Origin: a virus
Direction: 5' to 3' (one strand)
Length of the DNA stretch: 64,000 nucleotides
Virus record (IMG/VR): IMGVR_UViG_3300025645_000038
Coordinates: 64,001 to 128,000 of that record
In this document: positions 52,857 through 62,375 of the stretch, piece by piece
Numbering within the stretch: the stretch's first letter is position 1
Layout: every line of letters begins with the position of its first letter
Translations under genes and position numbers: made by a program
Notes under the pieces: generated by a model
The model's input: the letters and a program-made list of their open reading frames with translations, nothing else
Databases searched by the model: none
Told to the model about the DNA's origin: nothing

Positions 52857-52862
52857 AAAAAT

Positions 52863-52896
52863 AATTGTATTTCACTATTACGGGTGATATATATTA
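52863..52896 (+). promoter_or_regulatory. Putative bipartite promoter AATTGTATTTC-N11-TGATATATATTA upstream of SSB
   Basis: Matches 33975-34008 in both boxes and spacing. Confidence 0.6.
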
Positions 52897-52958
52897 TTGG
52901 TTACAGAATGATGTAACTAACAAATGAATAATAACTAATAAAATAAGGAGAATAAAAA

Positions 52959-53714
52959 ATGGATATTAATTCTATTCGTAAGCGTCTTAATCAATTACAA
53001 ACCACAAACAATAGGACTTCAAACCTATGGAAACCTCAACCAGGAAAACAAGTCATTAGGGTATTACCTTACAAACATAATAAGGATAATCCTTTCATTG
53101 AGTTGTTCTTTCATTTTGGTTTGAATAACAAAACCTATTTATCACCAATCTCTTTTGGTCGTCCAGACCCAATTGAAGAGTTTGCTCAGAAACTAAAAAC
53201 AAGTGGAAACAGAGAAGAGTATCAGATGGCTCGTAAGTTAGAAGCCAAGATGAGAACTTTTGCTCCTGTTATTGTTAGAGGTGAAGAGACTCAAGGTGTT
53301 CGTTTTTGGGGATTTGGTAAGACGGTCTATCAAGAATTACTTTCTGTAATAGCAGATCCAGACTATGGTGATATCACAGACGCTGTTAGTGGTCGTGATG
53401 TATCAGTAGAGTTTATTACTGCTGAAGAAAGTGGTGCTTCTTTTCCTAAGACTACCATTCGTGTTAAACCTAATCAGAATCCTATCGTAGAGGATAAAGC
53501 ACAATTGGAAAATCTCTTAGAAAACCAAAAAGACATTACTGAATTATATCAGGAATTATCTTATGAGGAGCTAACAGATGTTCTTAACACTTGGTTGAAT
53601 CCAGATGATACATCAACCGAGAGTGGAACTCAGACTGAAGCTTCGTCAGTAGTAGCTGAAACAGCAAAAGTTGAAGATGCTAGTGCTGCATTTGATGAGT
53701 TATTCAATAAGTAA
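52959..53714 (+). CDS. Single-stranded DNA-binding protein (gp32-like)
   Basis: WKP..G..VIRVLP, FWGFGKTVY, DITD..GRD and acidic tail ending FDELFNK. Confidence 0.85.
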   Translation: MDINSIRKRLNQLQTTNNRTSNLWKPQPGKQVIRVLPYKHNKDNPFIELFFHFGLNNKTYLSPISFGRPDPIEEFAQKLKTSGNREEYQMARKLEAKMRTFAPVIVRGEETQGVRFWGFGKTVYQELLSVIADPDYGDITDAVSGRDVSVEFITAEESGASFPKTTIRVKPNQNPIVEDKAQLENLLENQKDITELYQELSYEELTDVLNTWLNPDDTSTESGTQTEASSVVAETAKVEDASAAFDELFNK

Positions 53715-57513: not shown

Positions 57514-59526
57514 ATGATGGAAAAATTTCAGTTATCAGAAAATTTTATAAATAAATTTAAAAGAAAAAAGCCACCATTTGGTTTCAACGGATTAGGTGAA
57601 TTAGTTTATATGAGAACCTACTCAAGAATTAAAGAAGATGGTAAAAATGAGAGATGGTGGGAAACTGTACAAAGGGTTGTAGAAGGTACATACTCAATGC
57701 AGAAGAAATGGATTGAGTCTCACGAGTTAGGTTGGAATGCATGGCAGGCTCAGAAGAGTGCTCAAGATATGTATGAAAGAATTTTTACAATGAAGTTCCT
57801 ACCACCAGGTAGAGGACTTTGGGCTATGGGAACTCCTATCACAGAAGAAAAAGGTTTATATGCAGCTCTTAACAATTGTGCATTTGTATCAACCAAAACA
57901 ATAAAAGAAGATTATTCAAAACCTTTCTGTTTCCTTATGGATGCAAGTATGTTAGGTGTTGGAGTTGGGTTTGATACTAAAGGGGCTGATGAGATAATAG
58001 TAAAAGGAATAGATAAAGGTAGAGACGAACAATTGTTTGAAATACCTGATACTCGTGAAGGTTGGGTAGAATCTCTAAAGTTATTATTAGAAAGTTACTT
58101 TCATGGAACTGCTTCAATGAAGTTTGATTACTCAAAGATAAGAGGCGCTGGTGAACCAATAAGTGGATTCGGTGGTGTTGCTAGTGGTTATGAACCATTA
58201 GAAGAAGTTCATGAAGATATAAGAAAAGTATTAGAAAAAAATAGTGGAGAACCAATCACAATCACTACAATTGTTGATATTATGAATCTTATAGGAAAAT
58301 GTGTAGTAGCAGGTAATGTTCGTAGAACTGCTGAGATTGTATTTGGTGAGCCAGACAATGAAGAATATTTAGATTTAAAAAACTATGAAGTAAACCCACA
58401 CAGAGACCAATATGGATGGACAAGTAATAATAGTATATTTGCAGAATTGGGTATGGATTATACTGAAGCTGCCAAACGAATCGTAGATAACGGAGAGCCA
58501 GGTTTTGCTTGGTTAGATAATATGAGAAAGTATTCTCGTATGAAGAATGGTGGAGATGATAAAGACCATAGAGCTATGGGTGGTAATCCTTGTTTAGAAC
58601 AAACATTGGAGTCATATGAGTTATGTTGTTTAGTAGAAACTTTTCCTGATAATCATGATGACTTTGAAGATTATGCGAGAACTCTAAAGTATGCTTATCT
58701 TTATGCTAAAACAGTAACTCTTGGTAGAACACATTGGTCAGAAACTAACAGAGTTATGTTAAGAAACAGAAGAATAGGATGTTCGGTTAGTGGTATCGCT
58801 CAGTTCATCACTCATAGAGGATTGGGAACTTTAAAGGAGTGGTTAAATGATGGATACGATGTCATACAAGAATGGGATGATATGTACTCTGATTGGTTTG
58901 CTGTACCGAACTCAATCAAAACTACATCAGTTAAACCAAGTGGAACAGTTTCATTGTTGGCTGGCTCTACTCCAGGTTTACATTATCCCGAAAGTAGATT
59001 TTATATAAGAAGAATAAGGGTTTCAAAACATTCAGAACTATTAGTACCTATGGAAAAAGCAGGATATAAAATAGAACCTGCATTTGGTTCAGAGGATACT
59101 ACAATGGTTGTTGAAGTACCAGTAGATGTTGGAGAGGGAATAAGAACAGCGGCTGACCTATCGATATGGGAACAATTCAGTTTAGCTGCTTTTATGCAAA
59201 GACATTGGGCAGACAATCAAGTTAGTTGTACGGTTACATTCAATCCAGAAACAGAGGGTGAACAAATCGCACCCGCTCTAAATTATTATCAATATCATCT
59301 AAAAGGTATATCCCTTTTACCAAGACATGATTACGGAGCATATCCACAGATGCCGTATGAAGCTATAGATGAGAAAGAGTACAATAAACAAGTTAAGAAA
59401 CTTGGTAAACTTTCATTTGGTGTTATCAAAAATGAAGAGGCAGAAGTAGATAAGTTCTGTAATAACGATTCGTGTGAGATAATTCCAACGACTGGTGATA
59501 ACGATGACCAAGACTATGCTAATTAA
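57514..59526 (+). CDS. nrdJ: Class II adenosylcobalamin-dependent ribonucleotide reductase (monomeric RTPR type)
   Basis: FLPPGRGLW, LNNCAF, GNVRRTA, GNPCLEQ (thiyl Cys), ELCCL, TSVKPSGTVS and C-terminal CNNDSC; no beta-subunit gene nearby. Confidence 0.93.
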   Translation: MMEKFQLSENFINKFKRKKPPFGFNGLGELVYMRTYSRIKEDGKNERWWETVQRVVEGTYSMQKKWIESHELGWNAWQAQKSAQDMYERIFTMKFLPPGRGLWAMGTPITEEKGLYAALNNCAFVSTKTIKEDYSKPFCFLMDASMLGVGVGFDTKGADEIIVKGIDKGRDEQLFEIPDTREGWVESLKLLLESYFHGTASMKFDYSKIRGAGEPISGFGGVASGYEPLEEVHEDIRKVLEKNSGEPITITTIVDIMNLIGKCVVAGNVRRTAEIVFGEPDNEEYLDLKNYEVNPHRDQYGWTSNNSIFAELGMDYTEAAKRIVDNGEPGFAWLDNMRKYSRMKNGGDDKDHRAMGGNPCLEQTLESYELCCLVETFPDNHDDFEDYARTLKYAYLYAKTVTLGRTHWSETNRVMLRNRRIGCSVSGIAQFITHRGLGTLKEWLNDGYDVIQEWDDMYSDWFAVPNSIKTTSVKPSGTVSLLAGSTPGLHYPESRFYIRRIRVSKHSELLVPMEKAGYKIEPAFGSEDTTMVVEVPVDVGEGIRTAADLSIWEQFSLAAFMQRHWADNQVSCTVTFNPETEGEQIAPALNYYQYHLKGISLLPRHDYGAYPQMPYEAIDEKEYNKQVKKLGKLSFGVIKNEEAEVDKFCNNDSCEIIPTTGDNDDQDYAN

Positions 59527-59536
59527 AAACTTGCGG

Positions 59537-59570
59537 ATAGGCAGACGACACACCTATACAAAAATGTGTC
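59537..59570 (+). promoter_or_regulatory. Predicted H-type RNA pseudoknot in the TBDR leader
   Basis: S1 ATAGG/CCTAT, S2 GACACA/TGTGTC, L1 CAGAC, no L2, L3 ACAAAAA. Confidence 0.55.
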
Positions 59571-59598
59571 TTAACCAAAAACAAAGAGGAGACGTTTT

Positions 59599-62337
59599 AT
59601 GAATAAACGTAATCTATTATCTTGGCTGTTAATAGCTTTCACTCCAATTTTCCTTATGGGAAGTTCGGTAGTAGGAGTTGTTAGTGGCGAAGGTAAACCT
59701 TTGGTTGGAGCAAACGTAGTCATTGATGGTACAAACTTAGGAACCGTATCAGACGATGATGGTTTCTATAGTATTGATGTGCCTTTAGGTGAACATACTG
59801 TAGTTGCTTCATTCATAGGGTATTCATCTGTAACTCAAGTAGTTATGGTGGATTCAACAAGTGACGCTATAGCTGATTTCTCATTAGAGATGGATGCTAT
59901 TGCAATGTCTGCATTAGAAGTTCTTGCTTCTCGTGCTGACGAAACAACACCTGTTGCTTATACAACTGTAGATAAAGCTGAAATGGAAATCAGACTTGGT
60001 AGTCAAGATATTCCAATGATTCTTAATACTACACCGAGTGTATATGCTACTAACCAAGGTGGTGGTGCGGGTGATGCTCGTATCAATGTTCGTGGTTTCA
60101 ACCAAAGAAACGTTGCTGTTATGATTAATGGTGTTCCCCAAAATGATATGGAGAACGGATGGGTTTATTGGTCTAATTGGGATGGAGTAGGTGATGCTAC
60201 TTCTTCAATTCAGATGCAAAGAGGACTATCAGCTGTTAATCTTGCAACACCATCTATTGGTGGAACAATGAATATCATTACAGATCCTGCTGCTATGGAA
60301 AAAGGTGGTAAGTTCAAACAAGAAGTAGGTGAAGGTGGTTTTCTAAAAACTACTATGACTTACAACTCAGGTCTTATCAATGATAAACTAGCAATTGGTG
60401 GTGCGATAGTTCGTAAAACTGGTGATGGGTTTATTGATGGAACTTGGACAGACGCTTGGGCTTATTACTTAGGAACATCATATGCTATTAGTGATGACCA
60501 AAGGGTTGAACTATATGCTATCGGTGCTCCACAGAGACATGGACAGAACCTATACAAACAGAATATTGCTACTTACTCACAAGAGTTAGCAGGTAGTATT
60601 GATGGGTATGATGATTCTGCTTATGTTGCTGGTAACAAGTTTGAAACTGAAGCTGGTAGGTTTTATAATCAAAACGTAGCACCGATAAGTTCCGATTATA
60701 AAGGAAAGCAATATTGGTATATGTATGGGGATAAAACATCAGACAGATTTAGTCCCGACTTCCTAAATGAAAGAGAAAACTTCTTTCATAAACCACTTGT
60801 AAACTTAAATCATTTCTACGATATAAATGACGAACTTAGATTAAGTTCTGTTCTATATTGGAGTGGTGGTTCAGGTGGTGGTACTGGTACATATGGAAGT
60901 GTTAGTAGAAAACCTGCAGTTGAGGGAGAAAGATGGTATGCATCTTCACCTTGGACTTGGGATTGGGATGGAGAAATTGCTGAGAACTCTGCTAATGTAG
61001 ATTCTGCTTTCTCTGATACCGAAAATCGTTCTACTGGTATTCTTCGTAATTCAATTAATAGACAAGATACTTATGGTTTGATTTCAAAGTTAAACTATGA
61101 TGTATCAGATGAACTTGAAGTTCAGATTGGTATTGATTGGAGAACTGCTGGTATAGAACACGCTAGAGAAGTTCGTGACTTACTTGGTGGAGACTACTAT
61201 GTAGACTTTGCTGATAAGAATGCTCCCGATGGAAAAGTTGTTAGATTAGGTGATGAGATTGCTTATCACAATGAAACAACTGTCGATTGGTTTGGTGCTT
61301 TCTTACAAGGTAAGTATGATGCTGATAAGTTCAATCTTTATGGTATGGGTGGTATTTCAACCATTGGTTATACATATAAAGACCATTTCTCTGTAGAGAA
61401 AGAACTTGTTGAAGCTGATGCTATAACATCTTTCCAAGTAAAAGGTGGTGGTAGATATAATCTTGATGATAGATTATCTGCATTCGCTAATCTTGGATAT
61501 GTTCAGAAGCCGCCAATCCTTGATAATGTAATTTCTTATGATGGAACTGTATCTACAGATCCTGATAATGAGAAGTTCACATCAATGGAAGTCGGTGGTG
61601 AGTATAATAGTGGTTTAGTATCCATTAAGGGTAGTTACTACAATACTCAATGGAAAGATAGAAACCTTACAAAATCTGTAACAACAGGTCAAGGTGACTC
61701 AGGTGATACTGATATCATTTATCTAACTGGTGTAAATCAAAGTCATAGTGGAGTAGAAGTAGAAACGAAAGTTGCTCTTCACGAAATGGTTGACTTGGAT
61801 GTAGTAGTTAGTGTTGGTGATTGGTATTTCGATGGAGATGCTAAAGGTGACTATACAGAGATGGAATATAACGATGACAACCAAATCATTGGACAAACAT
61901 CTACAGAGTATGAATATGCTCTTAATGGTCTAATGGTTGGTGACATGCCACAAACTGCTTATGTTGGTGGATTAACTATTAAACCTATCGATGGATTAAG
62001 AATACAAGGTCTTTATAAGTGGTATGATAACCACTATTCAGATTGGAGTCCTGATTCTCGTGAGGTTGATGGTGATGCTGACAGAGCACAAGTATGGAAA
62101 ACTCCATCTTATGGCAAGTTAGACTTACATCTATCTTACAAACTACCAGAGATTGGTGGTTTAGATATGACACTTAGTGGTCATATATTTAACGTTCTTG
62201 ATGATGTTTATGTTCAAGACGCTGTTGACAATAGTAAGTATAATGGGTTTGGTGACAAAGTTCACGCTGCTCATAACGCTGAAGTATTTCTTGGTTCTCC
62301 AAGAAGTTTTAACTTAGGACTTGCTGTCAATTTCTAA
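59599..62337 (+). CDS. TonB-dependent outer-membrane receptor
   Basis: Signal peptide; N-terminal carboxypeptidase-regulatory-like domain (PLVGANVVIDGT..GTVSDDDGFYSI); plug (INVRGF...MINGVP, GGTMNIIT); beta-barrel; C-terminal PRSFNLGLAVNF. Confidence 0.92.
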   Translation: MNKRNLLSWLLIAFTPIFLMGSSVVGVVSGEGKPLVGANVVIDGTNLGTVSDDDGFYSIDVPLGEHTVVASFIGYSSVTQVVMVDSTSDAIADFSLEMDAIAMSALEVLASRADETTPVAYTTVDKAEMEIRLGSQDIPMILNTTPSVYATNQGGGAGDARINVRGFNQRNVAVMINGVPQNDMENGWVYWSNWDGVGDATSSIQMQRGLSAVNLATPSIGGTMNIITDPAAMEKGGKFKQEVGEGGFLKTTMTYNSGLINDKLAIGGAIVRKTGDGFIDGTWTDAWAYYLGTSYAISDDQRVELYAIGAPQRHGQNLYKQNIATYSQELAGSIDGYDDSAYVAGNKFETEAGRFYNQNVAPISSDYKGKQYWYMYGDKTSDRFSPDFLNERENFFHKPLVNLNHFYDINDELRLSSVLYWSGGSGGGTGTYGSVSRKPAVEGERWYASSPWTWDWDGEIAENSANVDSAFSDTENRSTGILRNSINRQDTYGLISKLNYDVSDELEVQIGIDWRTAGIEHAREVRDLLGGDYYVDFADKNAPDGKVVRLGDEIAYHNETTVDWFGAFLQGKYDADKFNLYGMGGISTIGYTYKDHFSVEKELVEADAITSFQVKGGGRYNLDDRLSAFANLGYVQKPPILDNVISYDGTVSTDPDNEKFTSMEVGGEYNSGLVSIKGSYYNTQWKDRNLTKSVTTGQGDSGDTDIIYLTGVNQSHSGVEVETKVALHEMVDLDVVVSVGDWYFDGDAKGDYTEMEYNDDNQIIGQTSTEYEYALNGLMVGDMPQTAYVGGLTIKPIDGLRIQGLYKWYDNHYSDWSPDSREVDGDADRAQVWKTPSYGKLDLHLSYKLPEIGGLDMTLSGHIFNVLDDVYVQDAVDNSKYNGFGDKVHAAHNAEVFLGSPRSFNLGLAVNF

Positions 62338-62349
62338 AATGGTAAACTT

Positions 62350-62375
62350 GGGGGGAATTTATTTCCCCCCTTTTT
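62350..62375 (+). terminator. Intrinsic terminator after the TBDR gene
   Basis: GGGGGGAA-TTTAT-TTCCCCCC-TTTTT. Confidence 0.88.

What the first reader, a model, noticed from the sequence alone, without database searches (positions are those of the whole stretch)
59531..59610. Compact H-type pseudoknot plus start-codon hairpin in the TBDR leader: candidate riboswitch or operator
Seen: S1 59537-41/59553-57, S2 59547-52/59565-70, zero-nt L2 and an A-rich L3. The fold ends 15 nt before the SD (GAGGAG), and a 6-bp hairpin ACGTTT/AAACGT (59592-59610) encloses the AUG. Known: this topology is used by small riboswitches (preQ1-I, SAM-II/V) and the T4 gene 32 operator, and TBDT genes are often riboswitch-controlled. 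I do not recognise it as any known class. Inference: ligand- or protein-responsive control of the phage transporter.
Basis: partly seen in the sequence, partly recalled or inferred. Interest (0 to 1): 0.7.

Follow-up and report, generated by a model that had tools for sequence, protein, structure and literature searches.

The report
Pseudoknot leader of phage TonB receptor
A 34-base RNA pseudoknot just upstream of an outer-membrane importer gene in marine T4-like phages is real, is conserved in every relative examined and matches no catalogued RNA family, so it is a new gene-control element; whether a protein, a small molecule or nothing triggers it is still open.

Summary

The pseudoknot is present in all 150 protein-retrieved relatives that include the leader. 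That is about 180 distinct contexts and 78 distinct cores, always in front of the TonB-dependent-receptor (TBDR) gene. Six of the 11 base pairs show compensatory changes with almost no unpaired cells. The helical junction, the start of L1 (CA) and the five A of L3 do not vary.

It is a single copy in its own genome and has no Rfam match. In one genome each of 185,579 prokaryote species it appears only on two small contigs that look mis-binned. The Bacteroidota orthologues of the TBDR lack it, so it arose in the phage lineage.

The pseudoknot does not touch the SD. I found no supported anti-SD pairing, terminator, conserved uORF or recoding signal.

The architecture is pseudoknot, then an A-rich G-poor UAAC-rich linker, then an SD/AUG hairpin. 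It most resembles the T4 gene 32 translational operator, and the phage encodes a gp32-family SSB.

My estimates:
- protein operator: about 0.35
- constitutive structural element: about 0.3
- riboswitch: about 0.2

This scan had already found the same element on other DNA (e1-5342254, e1-4702854).

The parts
57514..59526 (+). Upstream cistron: adenosylcobalamin-dependent ribonucleoside-triphosphate reductase (RTPR, class II RNR)
   Evidence: NCBIfam TIGR02505 scores 365.9 bits, above its cut-off of 340. Pfam RNR_Alpha and RNR-II insertion domain. No terminator or sigma-70-like promoter lies between it and the TBDR gene.
59533..59536 (+). GCGG 5' flank of the pseudoknot, conserved only in the majority clade
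   Evidence: Alignments A1 and A2. It is replaced by CCGA, CAAA, TACC and others in divergent clades, and no pairing partner was found.
59537..59541 (+). Pseudoknot stem S1, 5' strand (AUAGG)
   Evidence: Pairs with 59553-57. Pair 2 is C-G in 68 cores and U-A in 10. Pair 3 is A-U in 64 and U-A in 14, with no mismatch among the 78 cores tallied (one search has one unpaired row at pair 3). The two G-C pairs next to the junction are invariant. The outermost pair is dispensable.
59542..59546 (+). Loop L1 (CAGAC), crossing S2
   Evidence: 5 nt in 77 of 78 distinct cores. The first two bases (CA) are invariant, the third is G in about 95%, and the last two vary freely.
59547..59552 (+). Pseudoknot stem S2, 5' strand (GACACA)
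   Evidence: Pairs with 59565-70. Pair 1 is G-C, A-U or G-U. Pair 2 is A-U, G-C or G-U. Pair 4 is A-U in 58 cores and G-C in 20. S2 is 100% paired in A2.
59553..59557 (+). Stem S1, 3' strand (CCUAU); abuts S2 with no intervening base (L2 = 0)
59558..59564 (+). Loop L3 (ACAAAAA), A-rich, crossing S1
   Evidence: 7 nt in 74 of the 78 cores tallied and 9 nt in the other 4; one further variant seen has 4 nt. The last five A are invariant and the first two bases vary.
59565..59570 (+). Stem S2, 3' strand (UGUGUC)
   Evidence: The AUG at the L3-S2 boundary (59564-66) does not open a conserved uORF.
59571..59585 (+). Single-stranded A-rich, G-poor linker (CUUAACCAAAAACAAA)
   Evidence: S2 end to AUG is 24-39 nt, mode 28. 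Composition is A 53%, U 24%, C 17%, G 6%. UAAC is 8.7-fold and UAACAA 28-fold enriched over the genome. Some relatives carry a small palindromic hairpin here.
59586..59591 (+). Shine-Dalgarno GAGGAG
   Evidence: Most genes of the phage have UAGGAG-type SDs.
59592..59610 (+). Hairpin ACGUUU/AAACGU enclosing the AUG (59599-601); in the MFE fold it is extended by GGA:UCU pairs that take in part of the SD
   Evidence: Different lineages use different registers against the conserved CGUAAUCU (Arg-Asn-Leu) codons. Compensated variants are ACUUUU/AAAAGU and GAUUAU/AUAAUC.
59599..62337 (+). Regulated gene: 912-aa TonB-dependent receptor-like protein (CarboxypepD_reg plus Plug plus barrel)
   Evidence: Pfam, NCBIfam, PDB sequence search. 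Bacteroidota orthologues are 47-53% identical.
62350..62375 (+). Intrinsic terminator after the TBDR gene (8-bp G/C stem plus T run)
52959..53714 (+). gp32-family single-strand-binding protein gene: candidate trans-acting factor (inferred, not shown)
   Evidence: PF08804 scores 54.5 bits, above its cut-off. Its own leader has a 5' hairpin followed by a UAAC-rich single-stranded tract.

Best explanation
The element is a cis-acting RNA module in the intercistronic leader of the TBDR mRNA. It has three parts: a compact H-type pseudoknot (S1 5 bp, L1 5 nt, S2 6 bp, no junction base, A-rich L3 of 7 nt), a single-stranded A-rich G-poor linker of 13-25 nt, and a hairpin that occludes part of the SD and the AUG.

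I think it most likely works like the translational operator of T4 gene 32. In that model the pseudoknot is the specific structured docking site for a phage-encoded nucleic-acid-binding protein. The gp32-family SSB encoded 6 kb upstream is the obvious candidate. The protein then spreads over or clamps the adjacent single-stranded UAAC-rich tract and keeps 30S subunits off an initiation region that is already weak. TBDR synthesis would then be set independently of the upstream RTPR cistron and tied to the state of replication.

Shown: the pseudoknot and the AUG hairpin exist and are under strong selection; the element belongs to the TBDR gene; it is phage-specific and unlike known families.

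Inferred: that it acts on translation, that a protein is the effector, and that the protein is gp32.

The broader claim, a cis-acting RNA controlling TBDR translation or mRNA fate, I put at about 0.85. The protein-operator mechanism I put at 0.35.
For: Structure:
- Covariation in both interleaved stems, 6 of 11 pairs.
- At least 7, 15 and 13 parsimony changes at three pairs on the TBDR tree.
- Invariant bases cluster at the helical junction, in L1 (CA) and in L3 (five A).

The element belongs to the TBDR gene:
- It stays directly upstream of the TBDR when AhpC or glutamine synthetase genes are inserted after the RNR.
- All 305 instances with enough downstream sequence precede a TBDR-like N-terminus.
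- S2 end to AUG is constrained to 24-39 nt, whereas the intergenic spacer as a whole ranges from 63 to 117 nt.

Operator-like anatomy:
- The pseudoknot lies at -62 to -29.
- An unstructured A-rich linker follows, which starts with UUAAC in most lineages.
- The T4 operator is a pseudoknot about 67 nt upstream of the AUG followed by an A+U-rich tract with UUAA(A) repeats that overlaps the RBS (PMC3014915).

Candidate factor:
- A gp32-family SSB is encoded in the same replication module.
- Its own leader, conserved over 49 distinct relatives, also has a structured element followed by a UAAC/UAACAA-rich tract: 6.7-fold and 21-fold enrichment, against 8.7-fold and 28-fold in TBDR linkers, and no enrichment in the window's other intergenic DNA.

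Origin:
- Cellular TBDR orthologues lack the motif.
- It is easier to imagine a phage lineage recruiting an existing RNA-binding protein than evolving a new ligand aptamer.
Against: - No binding data exist.
- The gene 32 leader of this phage does not contain this pseudoknot: it is a single copy in the genome, and the next best model hit scores 15 bits. It appears to use a simple 5' hairpin instead. There is therefore no shared structured operator, only a shared linker flavour.
- UAAC occurs in 62% of TBDR linkers, and only once in this window.
- The enrichment counts come from related sequences.
- The linker to the SD is short (13-17 nt, against about 40 nt in T4).
- About a quarter of lineages carry an extra hairpin in the linker, which would hinder cooperative spreading.
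- T4 gp32 regulates only its own gene. An outer-membrane protein gene as a second target has no precedent.
- RegA-type repressors were not found, but that search was uninformative.
Confidence: 0.35

Rival explanations
1. Constitutive structural element. A mechanically stable, triplex-type pseudoknot acts without any effector. It could insulate TBDR initiation from ribosomes that terminate on the upstream cistron. It could act as a 5' or processing-site protective cap. It could flank a ribosome standby site (the A-rich linker) that lets 30S subunits capture the transiently open SD/AUG hairpin.
For: - S2 forms on its own in the MFE fold and no competing conserved fold was found.
- L2 = 0, CA at the start of L1, and an A-rich 7-nt L3 over a GC-rich end of S1. 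From my memory of luteovirid pseudoknots, these are the hallmarks of self-contained triplex pseudoknots, so the junction conservation could be purely intramolecular.
- The linker is G-poor and unstructured and the initiation region is unusually structured, which is the situation the standby model addresses.
- The linker tolerates extra hairpins and a 24-39 nt spacing.
- The RTPR-TBDR pair looks co-transcribed, with the terminator only after the TBDR gene.
- In the AhpC lineage the upstream ORF ends inside the pseudoknot, so ribosomes melt it routinely.
Against: - A plain hairpin would be enough for insulation or protection.
- 20 of the 32 fixed-length positions scored are invariant, against 2% of third codon positions in the adjacent gene (part of this is forced by the search pattern, but it also holds in the protein-retrieved sets).
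- A fixed 5-nt L1 with conserved CAG suggests recognition by something.
- No other gene of the phage uses such an element.
Confidence: 0.3
2. New phage-specific riboswitch. The pseudoknot is a minimal aptamer, the size of preQ1-I, for a metabolite linked to the transporter or to nucleotide supply. Ligand-dependent folding changes TBDR translation or mRNA fate.
For: - It sits in the 5' leader of a transporter gene.
- Conservation is concentrated at the helical junction and loops while the distal pairs covary freely, as in aptamers.
- At 34 nt it matches the smallest known classes.
- S1 is only marginally stable (5 bp, outer pair dispensable), so docking could depend on a ligand.
- No Rfam class matches, so if it is a riboswitch it would be new.
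Against: - No expression platform: the SD lies 13-25 nt beyond the pseudoknot, no terminator follows, and the only possible anti-SD pairing is a generic 3-bp CCU:AGG that is no better than against other genes' SDs and does not covary.
- L2 = 0 leaves no junction loop.
- It is confined to one gene of one phage clade and absent from cellular genomes apart from two small contigs that look mis-binned.
- The bacterial orthologues of the TBDR have no riboswitch.
- The B12 idea loses support because 6 of 12 bacterial orthologues sit beside a nucleotide pyrophosphatase/phosphodiesterase gene, not B12 genes.
Confidence: 0.2
3. Anti-SD switch, as proposed in the parallel first-reader note. The S1 3' strand (CACCU) alternates between pairing with S1 5' and pairing with the SD.
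For: CCU can pair with the AGG of the SD. In lineages whose SD reads AUAGGAG or ACAGGAG the match extends to 5 bp.
Against: - The typical duplex is 3 bp (-3.0 kcal/mol, mean -3.9), no better than the same strand against the SDs of 16 other genes of the phage (-2.9 to -5.3).
- The bases flanking the SD do not covary with the S1 C-G/U-A switch.
Confidence: 0.05
4. Recoding or coupling signal for the upstream ORF (stop-codon readthrough, -1 frameshift, termination-reinitiation), or a leader peptide starting at the AUG at the L3-S2 boundary.
For: The pseudoknot follows the upstream stop codon closely (10 nt here). Compact A-rich-loop pseudoknots stimulate recoding in viruses.
Against: - The intergenic spacer varies from 63 to 117 nt while the pseudoknot-to-AUG distance is held at 24-39 nt, so the stop-to-pseudoknot distance varies widely. 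In one lineage the stop lies inside the pseudoknot.
- The element follows whichever gene precedes the TBDR.
- There is no conserved extension frame.
- The uORF from the pseudoknot AUG ends at more than 20 different positions and in different frames.
Confidence: 0.03
5. DNA-level element (promoter, hairpin promoter, protein operator, origin), or chance complementarity.
For: Some lineages read TTGACA inside L1/S2 or TATAAAAA in L3.
Against: - Those hexamers are not conserved: most lineages read CAGACGACA and GTAGAAAAA.
- Two interleaved stems both covary, which a duplex-DNA site would not require.
- No sigma-70-like promoter is called in the spacer.
- Chance is excluded.
Confidence: 0.03

Closest known systems
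Translational operator of gene 32 mRNA in T4, T2, T6 and RB69
   Same: Both are in T4-like phages and both have an H-type pseudoknot with two coaxially stacked stems. The pseudoknot lies some tens of nucleotides upstream of the AUG (T4 about -67; here -62 to -29). An unstructured A/U-rich tract with UUAA-type repeats follows and leads into the ribosome-binding site (PMC3014915). A gp32-family protein is encoded by this phage.
   Different: It precedes an outer-membrane receptor gene, not gene 32. This phage's own gene 32 leader lacks the motif. The linker is about a third as long and ends in an SD/AUG hairpin. L1 is 5 nt with conserved CAG, whereas from memory it is 1 nt in T2/T4. There is no sequence similarity, and binding is untested.
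Small H-type pseudoknot riboswitches (preQ1-I RF00522, SAM-II RF00521, SAM-V RF01826, guanidine-III RF01763)
   Same: Size (about 34-50 nt), H-type topology, A-rich 3' loop lying along S1, position in the leader of a transport-related gene, and conservation focused at the junction.
   Different: There is no covariance-model match even at E<=10. L2 is 0 nt. S2 is a stable 6-bp helix that does not include the SD. No expression platform is present. The motif is confined to one phage gene and absent from cellular genomes.
Luteovirid -1 frameshift pseudoknots (BWYV, PLRV, ScYLV type; comparison from memory)
   Same: S1 is a 5-bp stem ending in GG, followed by an L1 that starts with CA, and the 3' loop is an A-rich 7-nt loop. 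In those RNAs this pattern builds a minor-groove triplex and a C+ base triple.
   Different: It is not inside an ORF, has no slippery site and lies at a variable distance from the upstream stop. S2 is 6 bp rather than 3 bp, and L1 is 5 nt rather than 2 nt.
btuB-type cobalamin riboswitch control of TonB-dependent receptors (RF00174)
   Same: A structured leader in front of a TonB-dependent receptor gene, here next to a B12-dependent enzyme gene.
   Different: There is no RF00174 match in the window or in 12 bacterial orthologue loci. The spacer is 72 nt, far below the size of any cobalamin aptamer.

Membership tests
H-type RNA pseudoknot (generic) | Two interleaved helices, each supported by compensatory substitutions | tested here: met
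   S1 has 3 covarying pairs and S2 has 3. 97-98% of cells are paired, 0/500 shuffles reach the observed score, and slid controls collapse.
H-type RNA pseudoknot (generic) | Loop lengths sterically compatible with both helices forming at once | tested here: met
   L1 is 5 nt over a 6-bp S2. L3 is 7 nt (4 to 9 in rare variants) over a 5-bp S1. L2 is 0. Compatibility is judged from general pseudoknot stereochemistry; no 3D model was made.
preQ1-I riboswitch (RF00522) | Match to the family covariance model | tested here: not met
   No hit at gathering score or at E<=10.
preQ1-I riboswitch (RF00522) | L2 loop carrying the ligand-pairing C, and a short P2 whose 3' strand overlaps the SD or a terminator | tested here: not met
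   L2 is 0 nt in all 78 cores. S2 is 6 bp and ends 13-25 nt before the SD.
SAM-II / SAM-V / guanidine-III / fluoride pseudoknot riboswitches | Match to the family covariance model | tested here: not met
   No Rfam 15 family matched 59300-59800 at E<=10.
Cobalamin riboswitch (RF00174) | Match to the family model; aptamer of roughly 100 nt or more | tested here: not met
   No hit. The whole spacer is 72 nt. The bacterial orthologues also have none.
Riboswitch (generic) | Expression platform: ligand-dependent alternative pairing with the SD/AUG, or a terminator | tested here: not met
   No terminator. Pairing of the pseudoknot with the SD is generic, 3 bp and does not covary.
Riboswitch (generic) | Direct, specific binding of a small molecule | not testable with these tools
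   Needs in-line probing, ITC or SHAPE.
T4 gene 32-type translational operator | Pseudoknot upstream of an unstructured A/U-rich tract that runs into the RBS | tested here: met
   Pseudoknot at -62 to -29. The linker is A 53%, U 24%, G 6%, with UAAC 8.7-fold enriched. Caveat: the tract is short and the SD/AUG lie in a hairpin.
T4 gene 32-type translational operator | Located on the mRNA of the binding protein itself (autogenous control) | tested here: not met
   It precedes the TBDR gene. The gp32 homologue's leader has no copy.
T4 gene 32-type translational operator | Specific binding of gp32 nucleated at the pseudoknot | not testable with these tools
   Needs EMSA, footprinting or toeprinting.
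Viral -1 frameshift / readthrough pseudoknot | Fixed short spacing (about 6-8 nt) downstream of a slippery site or leaky stop inside overlapping ORFs | tested here: not met
   The intergenic spacer varies from 63 to 117 nt while the pseudoknot-to-AUG distance is held at 24-39 nt, and in one lineage the stop lies inside the pseudoknot. There is no conserved extension frame.

The most novel reading that the evidence does not exclude
The pseudoknot is the aptamer of a previously unknown, phage-born riboswitch class. It would sense a metabolite tied to the imported substrate or to nucleotide supply (for example a nucleotide or organophosphate, or a corrinoid). It would act without base-pairing to the SD, for instance by switching a ribosome standby or docking site on and off.
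Probability: 0.2. Interest if true: 0.85.

Novelty: new variant of a known kind. Interest (0 to 1): 0.6.

Why it matters
Phage-encoded TonB-dependent receptors in abundant marine T4-like phages imply that viruses re-tool nutrient import by infected cells. This element is the only visible control point of that gene.

It is a very small RNA fold with strong covariation support, matches no family in Rfam 15, and evolved after the gene was captured from bacteria. It is therefore a clean case of de novo regulatory RNA evolution in a virus.

If it is a gp32-type operator, it would be the first case of that mechanism reaching beyond gene 32, linking nutrient import to replication status. If it is a riboswitch, it would be a new minimal class and would name the metabolite the phage cares about. 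Either way, 34 nt is small enough for direct biochemical and structural work.

Tried and rejected
1. Rfam 15, at gathering score on the whole window and at E<=10 on 59300-59800: nothing.
2. Second copies in the phage genome with a covariance model: none. The best other hit scores 15 bits.
3. Other gene contexts: two pattern scans of viral contigs gave only TBDR leaders plus random non-pairing hits.
4. Cellular genomes: the 24 pattern hits in one genome each of 185,579 species roughly match my rough chance estimate of about 26. Only two are real, both on contigs of 1.6 and 3.0 kb inside MAG bins.
5. Bacterial TBDR orthologues: no pseudoknot and no Rfam riboswitch in the 12 best loci.
6. uORF from the AUG at the L3-S2 boundary: frame and stop are not conserved.
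7. Anti-SD alternative fold: generic 3 bp only.
8. Readthrough, frameshift or coupling: variable spacing, and the element follows the TBDR gene.
9. The upstream TTCACATAC box as a pairing partner of S2: it does not covary with the S2 variants, and it is absent from this window.
10. Promoter or terminator in the spacer: none.
11. RegA family in the genome: not found, but the control search rang nowhere, so this is uninformative.
13. A wider UAAC-cluster regulon in the genome: only the gene 32 leader stands out.
15. Literature searches found no description of this motif.


Full report
**What is in the sequence**

- S1: AUAGG (59537-41) with CCUAU (59553-57).
- S2: GACACA (59547-52) with UGUGUC (59565-70).
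- L1: CAGAC.
- No base between S2 5' and S1 3'.
- L3: ACAAAAA.
- 15 nt to GAGGAG (59586-91).
- A 6-bp hairpin ACGUUU/AAACGU (59592-59610) with the AUG in its 7-nt loop.

A nested-only fold finds S2 and the AUG hairpin, at -14.6 kcal/mol and z = -2.2. Only 17 of 20,000 shuffles of the spacer contain any 5+6 bp H-type pseudoknot.

**Context**

The window is part of a 164.8-kb IMG/VR virus record. Around the element lies a T4-like replication module:
- a gp32-family SSB at 52959-53714
- RecA/UvsX
- a 5'-3' exonuclease
- a DnaB-like helicase
- a B-family polymerase after the TBDR gene

The upstream ORF is an adenosylcobalamin-dependent ribonucleoside-triphosphate reductase, TIGR02505, above its cut-off. 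The downstream ORF is a 912-aa TonB-dependent receptor-like protein with CarboxypepD_reg and Plug domains. No promoter-like or terminator-like site lies in the spacer. A strong intrinsic terminator follows the TBDR gene at 62350-62375. The element is therefore most likely intercistronic on an RTPR-TBDR transcript.

**Conservation and covariation**

- A protein-based search with the TBDR returned 80 viral contigs at 74-99% identity. All 74 that include upstream sequence carry the element.
- A second protein-based search, seeded with the most divergent TBDR found (L122, 66% identical in its N-terminal 400 residues), gave 80 more loci. All 76 with upstream sequence were hit by a covariance model at 25-68 bits.
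- Two pattern scans added further variants.
- Altogether I hold about 180 distinct 400-nt contexts and 78 distinct pseudoknot cores.

Pair counts on an 80-sequence alignment:
- 98.2% of cells are paired.
- Four pairs have changes on both sides.
- No shuffle of 500 reached the observed covariation score.
- The slid controls collapse to 18-58% paired.

Counts on the unbiased second set:
- 97.4% of cells are paired.
- Six of the 11 pairs covary.
- S2 is 100% paired.

Pair types among the 78 cores:
- S1 pair 2: C-G 68, U-A 10.
- S1 pair 3: A-U 64, U-A 14.
- S2 pair 1: G-C 70, A-U 3, G-U 3.
- S2 pair 2: A-U 63, G-C 10, G-U 5.
- S2 pair 4: A-U 58, G-C 20.

On a tree of the TBDR N-terminal 400 residues, three of these pairs changed at least 7, 15 and 13 times by parsimony. 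Recombination could inflate those counts. The window itself differs from a relative whose TBDR is 99% identical (L001) by a double change in S1, U-A against C-G.

Loop lengths are held tightly:
- L1 is 5 nt in 77 of 78 cores.
- L2 is always 0.
- L3 is 7 nt in 74 of the 78 tallied cores and 9 nt in the other 4. One further variant (L050) has a 4-nt L3.

The invariant bases sit at the helical junction: the GG/CC end of S1, CA at the start of L1, C-CA at the end of S2 5', the five A of L3 and the UG-G of S2 3'. The distal pairs vary. In the same 109 loci only 2% of third codon positions in the adjacent gene are invariant. Part of the invariance in that tally is forced by my search patterns, but it also holds in the protein-retrieved sets.

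**Where it occurs and where it does not**

- It is a single copy in its own genome: 60 bits, with the next hit at 15 bits.
- Every one of the 305 instances with enough downstream sequence precedes a TBDR-like N-terminus.
- When another gene is inserted after the RNR, the pseudoknot stays with the TBDR gene. The inserts are an AhpC/TSA peroxiredoxin in L019/L030 and a glutamine synthetase in L040/L041.
- In the AhpC lineage the upstream ORF's UAG spans the last base of S1 3' and the first two of L3, so translation must melt the pseudoknot.
- A pattern scan of one genome each of 185,579 prokaryote species gave 24 hits, close to my rough chance estimate of about 26. Only two are real, both on contigs of 1.6 and 3.0 kb inside MAG bins and both with the TBDR-type leader.
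- About 33 of 401 sampled Bacteroidota genomes hold a full-length orthologue of the TBDR at 47-53% identity. The 12 best loci have neither this motif (best 10 bits) nor any Rfam family.

The element therefore arose in the phage lineage after the gene was acquired.

**The rest of the leader**

From the end of S2 to the AUG there are 24-39 nt, mode 28. The part before the SD is 53% A and only 6% G. It begins with UUAAC in most lineages, and about a quarter carry a small palindromic hairpin there.

The initiation region is unusually structured. Mean MFE over -18 to +27 is -7.6 kcal/mol for 106 distinct leaders, against -3.7 for 32 other genes of the window. Different lineages pair the SD-to-AUG spacer with different registers of the conserved CGUAAUCU (Arg-Asn-Leu) codons. 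Two variants are compensated even at the cost of an amino-acid change: ACGUUU/AAACGU becomes ACUUUU/AAAAGU, and GAUUAC/GUAAUC becomes GAUUAU/AUAAUC.

**What it is not**

- No Rfam 15 family matches, even at E<=10.
- The pseudoknot shares no base with the SD. The only complementarity to the SD is CCU:AGG (typically -3.0 kcal/mol). That is no better than against other genes' SDs and does not covary. The anti-SD switch proposed in a parallel note is therefore not supported.
- The AUG at the L3-S2 boundary opens no conserved uORF.
- Readthrough, frameshifting and reinitiation are excluded by the variable position of the upstream stop.
- Promoter-like hexamers inside the element are specific to some lineages only.

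**How it most likely works**

The layout is a coaxial pseudoknot at -62 to -29, then a short unstructured A/U/C tract with UUAA-type words, then the RBS. This is the layout of the T4 gene 32 operator, where gp32 nucleates on a pseudoknot about 67 nt upstream and spreads over an A+U-rich tract with UUAA(A) repeats onto the RBS (PMC3014915).

This phage encodes a gp32-family SSB. That gene's leader is conserved in 49 distinct relatives. It consists of a promoter-like box, a lineage-variable 5' hairpin and a UAACAAAUGA-type single-stranded tract. UAAC and UAACAA are enriched 6.7-fold and 21-fold there, and 8.7-fold and 28-fold in TBDR linkers, but not in the window's other intergenic DNA. In the whole genome only the gene 32 leader shows a dense UAAC cluster before an SD-ATG.

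I therefore rank a protein operator of the gene 32 type first, at about 0.35. The weaknesses are real:
- The gene 32 leader has no copy of this pseudoknot.
- The linker is short and sometimes holds a hairpin.
- UAAC occurs only once in this window.
- The counts come from related sequences.
- No binding has been measured.

A constitutive role comes second at about 0.3. That role could be insulation from the upstream cistron, a protective cap after processing, or the flank of a ribosome standby site for a closed initiation region. It explains the junction conservation as an intramolecular triplex. The GG|CA boundary and the A-rich 7-nt loop recall luteovirid pseudoknots, a resemblance I draw from memory and did not test.

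A new riboswitch comes third at about 0.2. The conservation pattern and the size fit. But there is no expression platform, the distribution is one gene in one phage clade, and the cellular orthologues have no riboswitch.

**Comparison and novelty**

The element fails the defining tests for every known pseudoknot riboswitch class and for recoding pseudoknots. It meets the architectural features of the gene 32 operator but not the autogenous one. I file it as a new variant of a known kind: a new leader-pseudoknot family.

The same element was already noted and followed up by this scan on other genomes (e1-5342254, e1-4702854). My results agree with those notes on its reality and novelty. They add covariation in six pairs, the absence from cellular orthologues, the conserved AUG hairpin and the parallel with the gene 32 leader.

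The notes' suggestion of a SAR406 origin for the TBDR was not tested here. I found Bacteroidota orthologues at about 50% identity. The B12 rationale for the transporter is weakened: 6 of the 12 bacterial orthologue loci carry a type I phosphodiesterase/nucleotide pyrophosphatase gene next to the TBDR, and none has a cobalamin riboswitch.

Noticed in passing
L238-L249 (Bacteroidota loci); window 59599-62337: Chromosomal orthologues of the phage TBDR (47-53% identity, about 33 of 401 sampled Bacteroidota genomes) sit next to a type I phosphodiesterase/nucleotide pyrophosphatase gene (PF01663) in 6 of 12 loci, and none has a cobalamin riboswitch. This suggests nucleotide or organophosphate scavenging rather than B12 uptake as the transporter's role.
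   Followed up: partly
window 52857-52958 and L427-L506:475-600: The leader of the gp32-family SSB gene is conserved. It has a TTGTATTT-N17-GATATATATTAT promoter-like box, a lineage-variable hairpin (GGUUAC...GUAAC here; AUCAAG...CUUGAU elsewhere) and a UAACAAAUGA-type A/U-rich tract before the SD. This is an architecture like that of T4 gene 32, but seemingly without a pseudoknot.
   Followed up: partly
L019:1497-2066 and L030; L040:1939-2925 and L041: Some relatives carry an AhpC/TSA peroxiredoxin gene or a glutamine synthetase gene inserted between the RNR and the pseudoknot. The AhpC ORF ends with a UAG inside the pseudoknot (last base of S1 3' plus the first two of L3).
   Followed up: partly
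window, upstream of most + strand ORFs: Nearly all genes have a strong UAGGAG-type Shine-Dalgarno 6-9 nt before the start. This is unexpected if the host is a Bacteroidota, which the TBDR's domain make-up and orthologues suggest, because as far as I recall that phylum makes little use of SD pairing.
   Followed up: no
upstream of the pseudoknot in many relatives (e.g. L022, L250, L253, L317): An (A/G)AUUUCACAUAC(C) box directly follows the RNR stop codon in many lineages, and a similar UUCACAA word often follows the pseudoknot. This window lacks both. It does not covary with S2 and its function is unknown.
   Followed up: partly
window 62350-62375: A strong intrinsic terminator (G6/C6 stem plus T run) lies right after the TBDR gene and before the polymerase gene. 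It marks the TBDR as the last cistron of its transcript.
   Followed up: no
L209, L225 (genome contigs): Two short contigs (1.6 and 3.0 kb) that carry the phage pseudoknot-TBDR leader are binned into MAGs, one labelled Candidatus Pelagibacter. They are probably phage contigs that were mis-binned.
   Followed up: no
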